A DNA stretch of 679 bases from Escherichia coli. Lineage in GTDB: Bacteria; Pseudomonadota; Gammaproteobacteria; Enterobacterales; Enterobacteriaceae. The position numbers and the translations under genes are program-made. A model generated the notes under the pieces. The model saw only the letters and a program-made list of their open reading frames with translations, did not search any database and was not told the DNA's origin. The DNA is taken from assembly GCF_003334335.1 (NCBI RefSeq), contig NZ_QOWQ01000159.1. One strand, written 5' to 3'. This document shows, one piece after another, positions 1-679 of the stretch. Position 1 is the stretch's first letter; every line of letters begins with the position of its first letter.

Positions 1-501
1 AATCTGAGCCGGGTTCGTAAAAACGCCATTCCGGCGGCTTCAGCAATGACGATTAACCGCGTGGCCACAACGGCGATTAATCAGTCTTCGTCACAGGTTG
101 CCCGGGAAACCAGGGTGAGACGGAAACTGGTAAAGGAACGGTCCAGACTGAAACGGGCGACGGTCAGAAATCCGAATGCCAGAATTATCGTTAACCGCGG
201 TGATCTCCCTGTGATTAAGCTGGGGATCAGGATGCTGGGGCGTCGCCCGAACAGCATACTTAAAGCCGGTCAGCATCGGTATCAGCGGGCATTTATTCAG
301 CGATTAAAAAATGGTCGCTGGCATGTCATGCAGCGTGTGGCCGGGAAAAACCGTTACCCCATTGATGTGGTGAAAATCCCGATGGCGGCCCCACTGAAAC
401 AGGCATTTGATGAGAATGTTGACCGTATCCGGCGTGAACGCCTGCCTAAAGAACTGGCATACGCGCTGAAACAACAACTGAGGATTGCAATAAAACGATG
501 A
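1..501 (+). CDS. Z: Phage tail completion protein, lambda gpZ-like; 5'-partial (start upstream of window), stop TGA at 499-501
   Basis: Frame 1 is open from base 1, translating NLSRVRKNAIPAASA before the Met at 46, so the ORF-track start at 46 is an internal Met. The translation (…MTINRVATTAINQSSSQVARETRVRRKLVKERSRLKRATVRNPNARIIVNRGDLPVIKLG…AFIQRLKNGRWHVMQRVAGKNRYPIDVVKIPMAAPLKQAFDENVDRIRRERLPKELAYALKQQLRIAIKR) closely matches my recollection of lambda gpZ (…AMAINRVASSAISQSASQVARETKVRRKLVKERARLKRATVKNPQARIKVNRGDLPVIKLG…AFIQQLKNGRWHVMQRVAGKNRYPIDVVKIPMA…RIRRERLPKEL…). It is strongly basic (R/K-rich), as gpZ is, and sits immediately upstream of a gpU-like gene as in lambda. Identity is recalled from memory, not searched. 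Confidence 0.85.
   Translation, partial: NLSRVRKNAIPAASAMTINRVATTAINQSSSQVARETRVRRKLVKERSRLKRATVRNPNARIIVNRGDLPVIKLGIRMLGRRPNSILKAGQHRYQRAFIQRLKNGRWHVMQRVAGKNRYPIDVVKIPMAAPLKQAFDENVDRIRRERLPKELAYALKQQLRIAIKR
480..484 (+). promoter_or_regulatory. Possible Shine-Dalgarno (GAGGA) for the U-like gene, inside the 3' end of the Z-like gene
   Basis: GAGGA at 480-484 lies 13 nt upstream of the ATG at 498. That spacing is longer than optimal, so initiation may rely mainly on coupling to the terminating ribosome of the upstream gene. Confidence 0.3.
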
Positions 502-679
502 AACACACTGACATTCGTGCCGCAGTGCTGGATGCACTCGAGCAGCATGAACACGGGGCGACGCTGTTTGATGGTCGCCCCGTTGTTTTTGACGAAGAGG
601 ATTTTCCTGCGATCGCGGTTTATCTGACGGATGCAGAGTATACCGGTGAAGAGCTGGATGCAGATACCTGGCGGGCCAC
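498..679 (+). CDS. U: Phage tail terminator protein (minor tail protein), lambda gpU-like; 3'-partial (continues beyond window)
   Basis: ATG at 498-500 opens frame 3, which has no stop through 679. This ORF is missing from the supplied track, presumably because it runs off the window. Translation: MKHTDIRAAVLDALEQHEHGATLFDGRPVVFDEEDFPAIAVYLTDAEYTGEELDADTWRA. This closely matches the N-terminus of lambda gpU as I recall it (MKHTELRAAVLDALEKHDTGATFFDGRPAVFDEADFPAVAVYLTGAEYTGEELDSDTWQA…). The position directly after the Z-like gene matches lambda gene order Z-U-V. Confidence 0.88.
   Translation, partial: MKHTDIRAAVLDALEQHEHGATLFDGRPVVFDEEDFPAIAVYLTDAEYTGEELDADTWRA

What the first reader, a model, noticed from the sequence alone, without database searches (positions are those of the whole stretch)
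496..501. ATGA start/stop overlap between the Z-like and U-like genes
The U-like start codon ATG (498-500) overlaps the Z-like stop codon TGA (499-501) by 2 nt, i.e. the sequence ATGA. This arrangement is typical of translationally coupled genes in phage morphogenesis operons, where the stoichiometry of assembly proteins matters. The only nearby SD-like motif is at a long spacing, which is consistent with reinitiation-driven translation of U.
Basis: seen in the sequence. Interest (0 to 1): 0.25.

Follow-up and report, generated by a model that had tools for sequence, protein, structure and literature searches.

The report
Lambda-type Z/U gene overlap (ATGA)
The four bases ATGA at 498-501 are the stop of a lambda-like tail-completion gene (Z) overlapping the start of the tail-terminator gene (U); this junction is already annotated in lambda and its relatives, so the finding is real but ordinary.

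Summary
ATG 498-500 and TGA 499-501 share two bases, so the genes overlap by four. The window is 100% identical to Escherichia phage PhiR5_1 and to many E. coli prophages, where Z and U are annotated with this overlap. Lambda itself has the same junction (Z 7977-8555, U 8552-8947).

- **Conservation:** ATGA is kept in every lambda-type Z/U pair surveyed without a strong nearby Shine-Dalgarno (SD) site (57 distinct junction sequences, U identity down to about 52%). The exceptions carry a strong, well-placed SD: VT1-Sakai type (12-nt gap, GGGAGGG) and Proteus (GTGA overlap, AAGGGAGGG). Vibrio relatives use GTG with an 11-nt overlap.
- **SD-like site:** the only one is GAGG at 480-483, 14 nt before the ATG (-5.9 kcal/mol). 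It lies in a 9-mer, CAACTGAGG (475-483), with the strongest synonymous-site conservation within 80 codons on either side. It is still absent from about 12-18% of junctions.
- **Structure:** no RNA structure masks the start, and the U start region is the least structured of 19 late-operon starts.
- **Reading:** termination-reinitiation coupling helped by a distal SD is the best explanation, but it is untested. Independent initiation cannot be excluded. The stoichiometry rationale is weak.

Novelty: already known.

The parts
1..501 (+). 3' part of the Z-like tail completion gene (residues 11-177 of the 177-aa protein), ending in stop TGA 499-501
   Evidence: Translation. 68% identity to lambda gpZ. 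Pfam PF06763 at 8.6e-59. PHROG 27 'tail completion or Neck1' at 4.9e-63. Annotated as 'tail component protein Z'.
498..679 (+). 5' part of the U-like tail terminator gene (residues 1-60 of 131)
   Evidence: Translation MKHTDIRAAV.... 79% identity to lambda gpU over 131 of 131 residues. PDB 1z1z at 5e-68, aligned 1-131 to 1-131. Pfam PF06141 at 2e-61. PHROG 37 'tail terminator'.
498..501 (+). ATGA: the U start codon (498-500) overlapping the Z stop codon (499-501), a -4 junction
   Evidence: Annotated in this way. Conserved in 57 distinct junction sequences.
496..498 (+). Last Z codon CGA. Its third base is the A of the U start, so the overlap forces a codon ending in A.
   Evidence: 40 of the 42 junctions whose last Z residue is Arg use CGA, and the other 2 use AGA.
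475..483 (+). CAACTGAGG (Z codons -8 to -6, Gln-Leu-Arg), containing the only SD-like core, GAGG at 480-483, 14 nt upstream of the ATG. It is under synonymous-site constraint.
   Evidence: Anti-SD duplex of -5.9 kcal/mol. These are the three lowest relative codon entropies of 71-74 conserved columns, with permutation p about 0.001, also in 33 representatives more than 10% apart. AGG or AGA is used in 50 of 57 junctions, against 22% AGR among all Arg codons of Z genes.
484..512 (+). A/U-rich, unstructured spacer and start region of U
   Evidence: No stable or conserved structure. The opening energy of -20..+15 is 3.5 kcal/mol, the lowest of 19 late-operon starts, and 4.2 in lambda, also the lowest.

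Best explanation
This is the Z/U junction of a lambda-type tail gene cluster. The tail completion gene Z ends with TGA 499-501, and the tail terminator gene U starts with ATG 498-500 in the -1 frame.

The most likely mechanism has three steps:
- Ribosomes finishing Z release the peptide at UGA.
- The ribosome, or its 30S subunit, stays on the unstructured A-rich mRNA.
- It re-starts at the AUG two bases downstream of the P site. This is termination-reinitiation coupling.

A weak SD-like GAGG 14 nt upstream, inside the conserved CAACUGAGG, probably helps to hold the small subunit. It is too far from the AUG to act as an efficient ordinary SD. Some independent initiation probably occurs as well.

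Shown here: the gene identities, the overlap, its conservation, the position and constraint of the SD-like motif, and the absence of masking structure.

Inferred: that reinitiation supplies most of U's translation, and that the distal motif acts through the ribosome.
For: - **Identity and overlap:**
- **ATGA is invariant** where no strong proximal SD exists: 11 of 12 phage pairs, 79 of 79 diverse viral contigs and 57 distinct junction sequences.
- **Junctions with essentially no SD keep ATGA:** 10 of the 57 have AGA or CGN at Z codon -6 and a best duplex of -4.6 kcal/mol or weaker.
- **Lineages with another architecture carry a strong, well-spaced SD:**
  - VT1-Sakai and pNJS001-2 have a +12 gap and CTGGGAGGG at -10.7 kcal/mol.
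  - Proteus has GTGA and AAGGGAGGG at -11.8 kcal/mol.
  - Both use CGC or CGG instead of AGG at Z codon -6.
- **The distal motif CAA-CTG-AGG is the most synonymously constrained triple** within 80 codons on either side.
- **Published experiments on E. coli pairs:** 4 of 5 native -4 pairs were coupled, 3 of them tightly and 1 with about 40% independent initiation. Removing the intragenic SD cut reinitiation by 60-100% in 4 of 5 (PMC6728339).
- **Spacing:** -4 to +3 is the most efficient range for coupling (PMC12548453).
Against: - No experiment on Z/U coupling was found. Liu 2013 and Sampson 1988 are not held.
- The U start region is the least structured of all late-operon starts, and no hairpin masks it. 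De novo initiation is therefore not obviously prevented.
- The bioBF pair shows that a -4 overlap with a weak SD can be uncoupled.
- Conservation of ATGA is expected without any coupling. Changing any of its four bases destroys a start or a stop or alters one of the proteins, apart from the synonymous CGA-to-CGG or CGT change that would weaken the start to GTG or TTG.
- The review attributes the abundance of -4 spacing largely to how easily it evolves.
- gpU is needed at 6 copies per virion. The Z counterparts in other phages are monomers, which does not fit a mechanism that caps U at the level of Z.
- The surveyed sequences are phylogenetically related, so the counts are not independent events.
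Confidence: 0.55

Rival explanations
1. The overlap is a compaction by-product. U is translated mainly by independent (de novo) 30S binding to an unusually open, A-rich start region, helped a little by the distal GAGG. The ATGA arrangement persists because it is easy to evolve into and hard to leave, not because it couples the two genes.
For: - The U start has the lowest opening energy of 19 late-operon starts in both PhiR5_1 (3.5 kcal/mol) and lambda (4.2 kcal/mol).
- No structure occludes it.
- The second codon is AAA or AAC in most relatives.
- bioBF is a precedent for an uncoupled -4 pair with a weak SD.
- The review states that -4 spacing is abundant mainly because it evolves easily.
- The virion needs more U (a hexamer) than the probable amount of Z.
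Against: - Every other start in the operon has an SD-like element much closer to its start codon, or a stronger one.
- Junctions with no SD at all never drift away from ATGA.
- The only lineages that left ATGA, or use GTGA, acquired a strong proximal SD.
- 4 of 5 tested E. coli -4 pairs are coupled.
Confidence: 0.33
2. Coupling works by RNA unfolding. A hairpin sequesters the U start, and only ribosomes translating the end of Z open it, as proposed for phage f1 genes VII and IX.
For: This is the classical model for some -4 pairs. Local structures were predicted for 4 of 5 E. coli pairs.
Against: - The minimum-free-energy folds leave 470-505 essentially unpaired, with z-scores of -0.53 and +0.63 against shuffles.
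- RNAalifold finds no conserved pairs in 10 relatives.
- The opening energy is the lowest in the operon.
Confidence: 0.05
3. The annotated start is wrong, or the junction serves a Z-U fusion made by -1 frameshifting, since U lies in the -1 frame of Z.
For: U is in the -1 frame relative to Z. Lambda uses a -1 frameshift two genes downstream, at G/T (established knowledge).
Against: - No other in-frame start lies between the stop at 447-449 and 498.
- The next start, GTG 525, would delete 9 conserved residues.
- Lambda gpU in native virions is modelled for all 131 residues, and the query aligns 1-131 to 1-131.
- No X XXY YYZ slippery heptamer occurs in the last 20 Z codons of any of 10 relatives.
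Confidence: 0.02

Closest known systems
Bacteriophage lambda Z/U junction (Z 7977-8555, U 8552-8947; NC_001416)
   Same: - Orthologous genes (68% and 79% protein identity).
- The same FII-Z-U-V-G-T-H order.
- The same ATGA overlap and the same last Z codon, CGA.
- The same CAACTGAGG 14 nt upstream.
- The same AAA second codon.
- The same unstructured start region.

   Different: - The Z here is 15 residues shorter, because of gaps in the basic central loop.
- DNA similarity to lambda-type phages begins only at about base 286.
- Lambda's motif continues as GAGGATGG, giving a slightly better anti-SD duplex (-8.5 against -5.9 kcal/mol).
Native E. coli gene pairs with a -4 nt overlap that are coupled by termination-reinitiation (hyfHI, astDB, ydbH/ynbE, menDH; Huber et al. 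2019, PMC6728339)
   Same: - NTGA overlap.
- An SD-like motif inside the upstream gene.
- Host translation machinery.

   Different: - Coupling was measured for those pairs and has not been measured here.
- Local structures around the overlap were predicted for them, and none is predicted here.
Bacillus phage SPP1 genes 16.1 (tail completion) and 17 (tail-to-head joining/terminator)
   Same: The functionally equivalent gene pair also has an AUGA overlap: gene 17 AUG at 10,066 and gene 16.1 UGA ending at 10,069 (table in PMC6316719).
   Different: - The proteins lack detectable sequence similarity to Z and U, according to the papers read. This was not tested here.
- Gene 17 has a strong SD, AGGAGGU, at a spacing of 10 nt.
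VT1-Sakai-type and Proteus-type Z/U junctions
   Same: Homologous Z and U genes in the same order.
   Different: - VT1-Sakai: the stop lies 12 nt before the ATG, with a strong GGGAGGG SD.
- Proteus: GTGA overlap with AAGGGAGGG.
- Both lack AGG at Z codon -6.

Membership tests
Lambda-type Z/U tail gene pair | The upstream protein belongs to the gpZ tail completion family | tested here: met
   Pfam PF06763 at 8.6e-59 over 3-177. 68% identity to lambda gpZ. PHROG 27.
Lambda-type Z/U tail gene pair | The downstream protein belongs to the gpU tail terminator family | tested here: met
   Pfam PF06141 at 2e-61. PDB 1z1z at 5e-68 over the full length. PHROG 37.
Lambda-type Z/U tail gene pair | Synteny FII-Z-U-V-G-T-H within the late operon | tested here: met
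   Annotated order in PhiR5_1 and in an E. coli prophage identical to the window.
Gene pairs with a -4 nt (NTGA) start/stop overlap | Co-directional real genes whose start codon shares two bases with the upstream TGA | tested here: met
   Both ORFs are supported by homology, and the records annotate the 4-nt overlap.
Translationally coupled pair (termination-reinitiation) | Translation of the downstream gene depends on translation of the upstream gene to its stop | not testable with these tools
   This needs reporter or ribosome-profiling data. No such data for Z/U were found.
Translationally coupled pair (termination-reinitiation) | Stop-start spacing within the efficient range (-4 to +3) | tested here: met
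   The spacing is -4. The efficient range is taken from PMC12548453.
Translationally coupled pair (termination-reinitiation) | No strong, well-spaced independent ribosome-binding site for the downstream gene | tested here: met
   The best anti-SD duplex is -5.9 kcal/mol, with its core 14 nt from the AUG, and nothing lies closer. Ten relatives lack any SD.
Translationally coupled pair (RNA-unfolding type, e.g. f1 VII/IX) | A local structure sequesters the downstream start in untranslated mRNA | tested here: not met
   Fold z-scores of -0.53 and +0.63, no conserved pairs, and the lowest opening energy in the operon.

The most novel reading that the evidence does not exclude
The 9-mer CAACUGAGG, 14-22 nt upstream of the U start, would be a dedicated reinitiation tether: an SD-like element deliberately placed too far from the AUG for normal initiation. 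On this reading it pairs with the anti-SD of the ribosome while that ribosome terminates on the Z stop, and holds the 30S subunit for a restart at the overlapping AUG. That would make Z/U a natural, evolutionarily tunable model for how SD spacing separates de novo initiation from reinitiation.
Probability: 0.2. Interest if true: 0.35.

Novelty: already known. Interest (0 to 1): 0.12.

Why it matters
It matters little as a discovery. The overlap is annotated in lambda and in the very phage and prophage records that contain this window, and -4 overlaps are the commonest junction type in prokaryotic operons.

The modest added value is comparative:
- The junction type and SD strength co-vary across Z/U lineages.
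- The distal SD-like 9-mer shows clear synonymous constraint.
- The start region is exceptionally open.

Together these make lambda Z/U a convenient, genetically tractable pair for asking how much of a -4 junction's output comes from reinitiation and how much from independent initiation.

Tried and rejected
- **NCBIfam:** the scan of both proteins gave no family. Pfam and PHROGs were used instead.
- **First viral-contig scan:** the single U protein returned only 99-100% identical loci, which were useless for diversity. All 78 usable loci simply repeat ATGA.
- **Literature:** no experimental test of Z/U coupling was found.
  - Liu et al. 2013 (lambda ribosome profiling) and Sampson et al. 1988 are not held.
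  - No supplement is held for PMC5737525.
- **Masking hairpin:** none was found.
- **Known RNA family:** Rfam gave 0 matches at E up to 1.
- **Internal promoter or terminator:** 0 promoter-like sites, and one minus-strand terminator-like hit at chance level.
- **Antisense gene:** the 77-aa minus-strand ORF at 304-537 that spans the junction is broken by stops in N15, phi80, mEp043, Gifsy-2, cdtI and Rahnella, so it was rejected.
- **Z-U fusion by -1 frameshift:** there is no slippery heptamer in any of 10 relatives, so it was rejected.
- **Essential SD:** the idea that the distal GAGG is indispensable was rejected, because 7 of 57 distinct -4 junctions use CGN and 3 use AGA, with no SD elsewhere.

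Full report
**1. Observation**

Bases 491-501 read TAAAACGATGA. ATG occupies 498-500 and TGA 499-501. The codons share two bases and the genes share four.

The frame-1 reading frame is open from base 1 to this TGA. The frame-3 reading frame starts at ATG 498 and runs off the window. In the U frame the preceding stop is TAA 447-449, and no ATG, GTG or TTG lies between it and 498, so 498 is the first possible start.

The tetramer ATGA alone is not unusual. It occurs four times on the + strand. Its significance is positional.

**2. What the genes are**

The window is 100% identical to Escherichia phage PhiR5_1 (PV340545.1, 33712-34390). It has matches of at least 80% nucleotide identity in 3,959 of 5,426 complete E. 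coli genomes. In 1,668 of these genomes a single match covers at least 80% of the window.

In PhiR5_1 the genes are annotated as tail component Z (L001 3968-4501) and U (4498-4893). They sit in the order FI-FII-Z-U-V-G-T-H. The RefSeq annotation of an identical prophage gives the same coordinates.

- **Z-like protein:** 68% identical to lambda gpZ. It matches Pfam Minor_tail_Z at 8.6e-59.
- **U-like protein:** 79% identical to lambda gpU without gaps. It matches Phage_tail_U at 2e-61. It aligns residue 1-131 to 1-131 with the solved gpU structures.
- **Start codon:** in native lambda virions all 131 residues of gpU are modelled (PMC10721106). This supports ATG 498 as the start.
- **Lambda:** it has the same 4-nt overlap, Z 7977-8555 and U 8552-8947. 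The junction sequence, CAACTGAGGATGGTAATAAAGCGATGAAACAT, is nearly the same.

**3. How general the junction is**

| Set surveyed | Junction found |
|---|---|
| 12 enterobacterial phage Z/U pairs, U identity down to about 52% | 11 have ATGA |
| VT1-Sakai (the exception) and a plasmid-borne copy | Z stops 12 nt before the U ATG; CTGGGAGGG lies 4-5 nt before the ATG (-10.7 kcal/mol) |
| Proteus prophage | GTGA overlap with AAGGGAGGG (-11.8 kcal/mol) |
| Three Vibrio relatives | GTG start overlapping the Z stop by 11 nt (GTGGAAATTAA), with GAGG 6-9 nt upstream |
| Viral contigs found with a U alignment led by the Rahnella sequence (61-100% identity to it) | 79 of 79 usable loci have ATGA with an ATG start |

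Together these give 57 distinct ATGA junction sequences.

Junctions of the -4 type are common in these operons. In lambda they are A/W, W/B, Z/U and H/M. In PhiR5_1 they are W/B, Z/U, H'/M and K/I. The analogous SPP1 pair, 16.1/17, also has AUGA.

**4. Ribosome-binding context**

The best anti-SD pairing upstream of ATG 498 is -5.9 kcal/mol, with the core GAGG at 480-483. That leaves 14 nt between the core and the AUG, and nothing lies closer. From general knowledge, efficient E. coli spacings are about 5-9 nt. Other starts in the operon have SD-like elements much closer to the start codon.

The motif is nevertheless not incidental:

- **Codon choice at Z -6:** the GAGG is formed by Z codons -7 and -6 (CTG AGG). 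Arg -6 is AGG or AGA in 50 of 57 distinct junctions. Among all Arg codons of Z genes the AGR share is 22%.
- **Synonymous constraint:** conserved-residue columns within 80 codons on either side of the junction were compared. Z codons -8, -7 and -6 (CAA CTG AGG, window 475-483) have the three lowest relative codon entropies (0.23, 0.36, 0.36).
- **Robustness:** the result holds in 33 representatives more than 10% apart. The column-permutation p is about 0.001.
- **Lineages with a strong proximal SD:** the two such lineages use CGC or CGG at that Arg.
- **Not essential:** seven distinct junctions use CGN and three use AGA. These ten have no SD-like sequence anywhere, and all still keep ATGA.

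**5. RNA structure**

Folds of 121 nt and 61 nt around the junction leave 470-505 essentially unpaired. They are no more stable than shuffled sequences, with z-scores of -0.53 and +0.63. RNAalifold on ten relatives finds no conserved pair.

The energy needed to open -20..+15 is 3.5 kcal/mol here and 4.2 kcal/mol in lambda. In both phages this is the lowest of 19 late-operon starts. Coupling by RNA unfolding is therefore unlikely. The same openness would favour both a sliding post-termination ribosome and SD-independent de novo binding.

**6. Mechanism**

The best-supported reading is termination-reinitiation at the overlapping AUG, helped by the distal SD-like motif, with some independent initiation as well.

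In favour:
- The comparative pattern above.
- Published experiments on native E. coli -4 pairs. Four of five were coupled, three of them tightly and one with about 40% independent initiation. Removing the intragenic SD reduced reinitiation by 60-100% in four of five (PMC6728339).

Against:
- No direct data exist for Z/U.
- The open start region would also allow independent initiation.
- bioBF is a precedent for an uncoupled -4 pair.
- ATGA is self-locking. Changing any of its four bases destroys a start or a stop or alters one of the proteins, apart from the synonymous CGA-to-CGG or CGT change that would weaken the start to GTG or TTG. The review attributes the abundance of -4 spacing largely to ease of evolution.

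The stoichiometry rationale is weak. gpU is a hexamer. gpZ has not been located in any lambda reconstruction. Its counterparts in 80alpha and T5 are single copies.

I put reinitiation as the main route at about 0.55, mainly independent initiation at about 0.33, and RNA unfolding at about 0.05. A wrong start or a Z-U fusion is at about 0.02, because no slippery heptamer exists in any of ten relatives.

**7. Other checks on both strands**

- There is no Rfam match.
- There is no promoter-like site, and one terminator-like hit at chance level.
- The minus-strand ORF at 304-537 that spans the junction is interrupted in most relatives.

**8. Verdict**

The feature is the well-known lambda Z/U overlap found in an already annotated phage, so it is already known and of low interest.

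The only mildly new points are comparative:
- Junction type co-varies with SD strength.
- The distal CAACTGAGG is under synonymous constraint.
- The start region is exceptionally open.

Noticed in passing
window 475-483 (L001 4475-4483): CAA-CTG-AGG (Z codons -8 to -6) shows the strongest synonymous-site conservation within 80 codons on either side of the junction. The conserved stretch extends 5' of the SD-like GAGG into CAACT, which anti-SD pairing does not explain.
   Followed up: partly
window about 219-290 and the similarity boundary near 286: This Z is 15 residues shorter than lambda gpZ, through two gaps in the Arg/Lys-rich central loop. Megablast similarity to lambda-type phages covers only 286-676. 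Together these suggest a mosaic recombination boundary inside gene Z.
   Followed up: no
L091 (Vibrio phage K243) 917-1360: The annotated tail terminator start (ATG 995) is probably too far downstream. GTG 917 has a GAGG 6-9 nt upstream, overlaps the Z stop by 11 nt, and gives the N-terminus VEINTQIRE, which matches Vibrio HY01 and V. cortegadensis.
   Followed up: partly
L089 (phage cdtI) 983-1396: The U homologue is annotated from 983, which gives a 16-nt overlap with Z. ATG 995 instead gives the same ATGA junction and the MN(R/K)H N-terminus seen in Fels-1 and mEp043. The annotated start is therefore probably 12 nt too early.
   Followed up: partly
L182 12233-14805 (PhiR5_1): The tape-measure gene H is annotated as two CDSs, 12233-14566 and 14566-14805, that meet at a single shared base. 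This could be a frameshift, a sequencing error or a real split.
   Followed up: no
Z-like protein residues 20-177 (L001 3968-4498): The best PHROG hit is phrog_8274, a 354-position family of unknown function. Z matches only its C-terminal half (positions 182-354), which implies that longer, fused Z-like proteins exist.
   Followed up: no
MW057783.1 'Campylobacter phage CJLB-4', 8471-8863: A record labelled as a Campylobacter phage carries a U gene with the same match statistics as lambda's (79.4% identity, 218 bits). The genome is of lambda-like size and the gene is at a lambda-like position. This looks like lambda DNA rather than a Campylobacter phage.
   Followed up: no
U start regions, L182 10190-10224 and L181 8532-8566: The U start has the lowest predicted RNA opening energy of all 19 late-operon starts in both PhiR5_1 and lambda.
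   Followed up: partly
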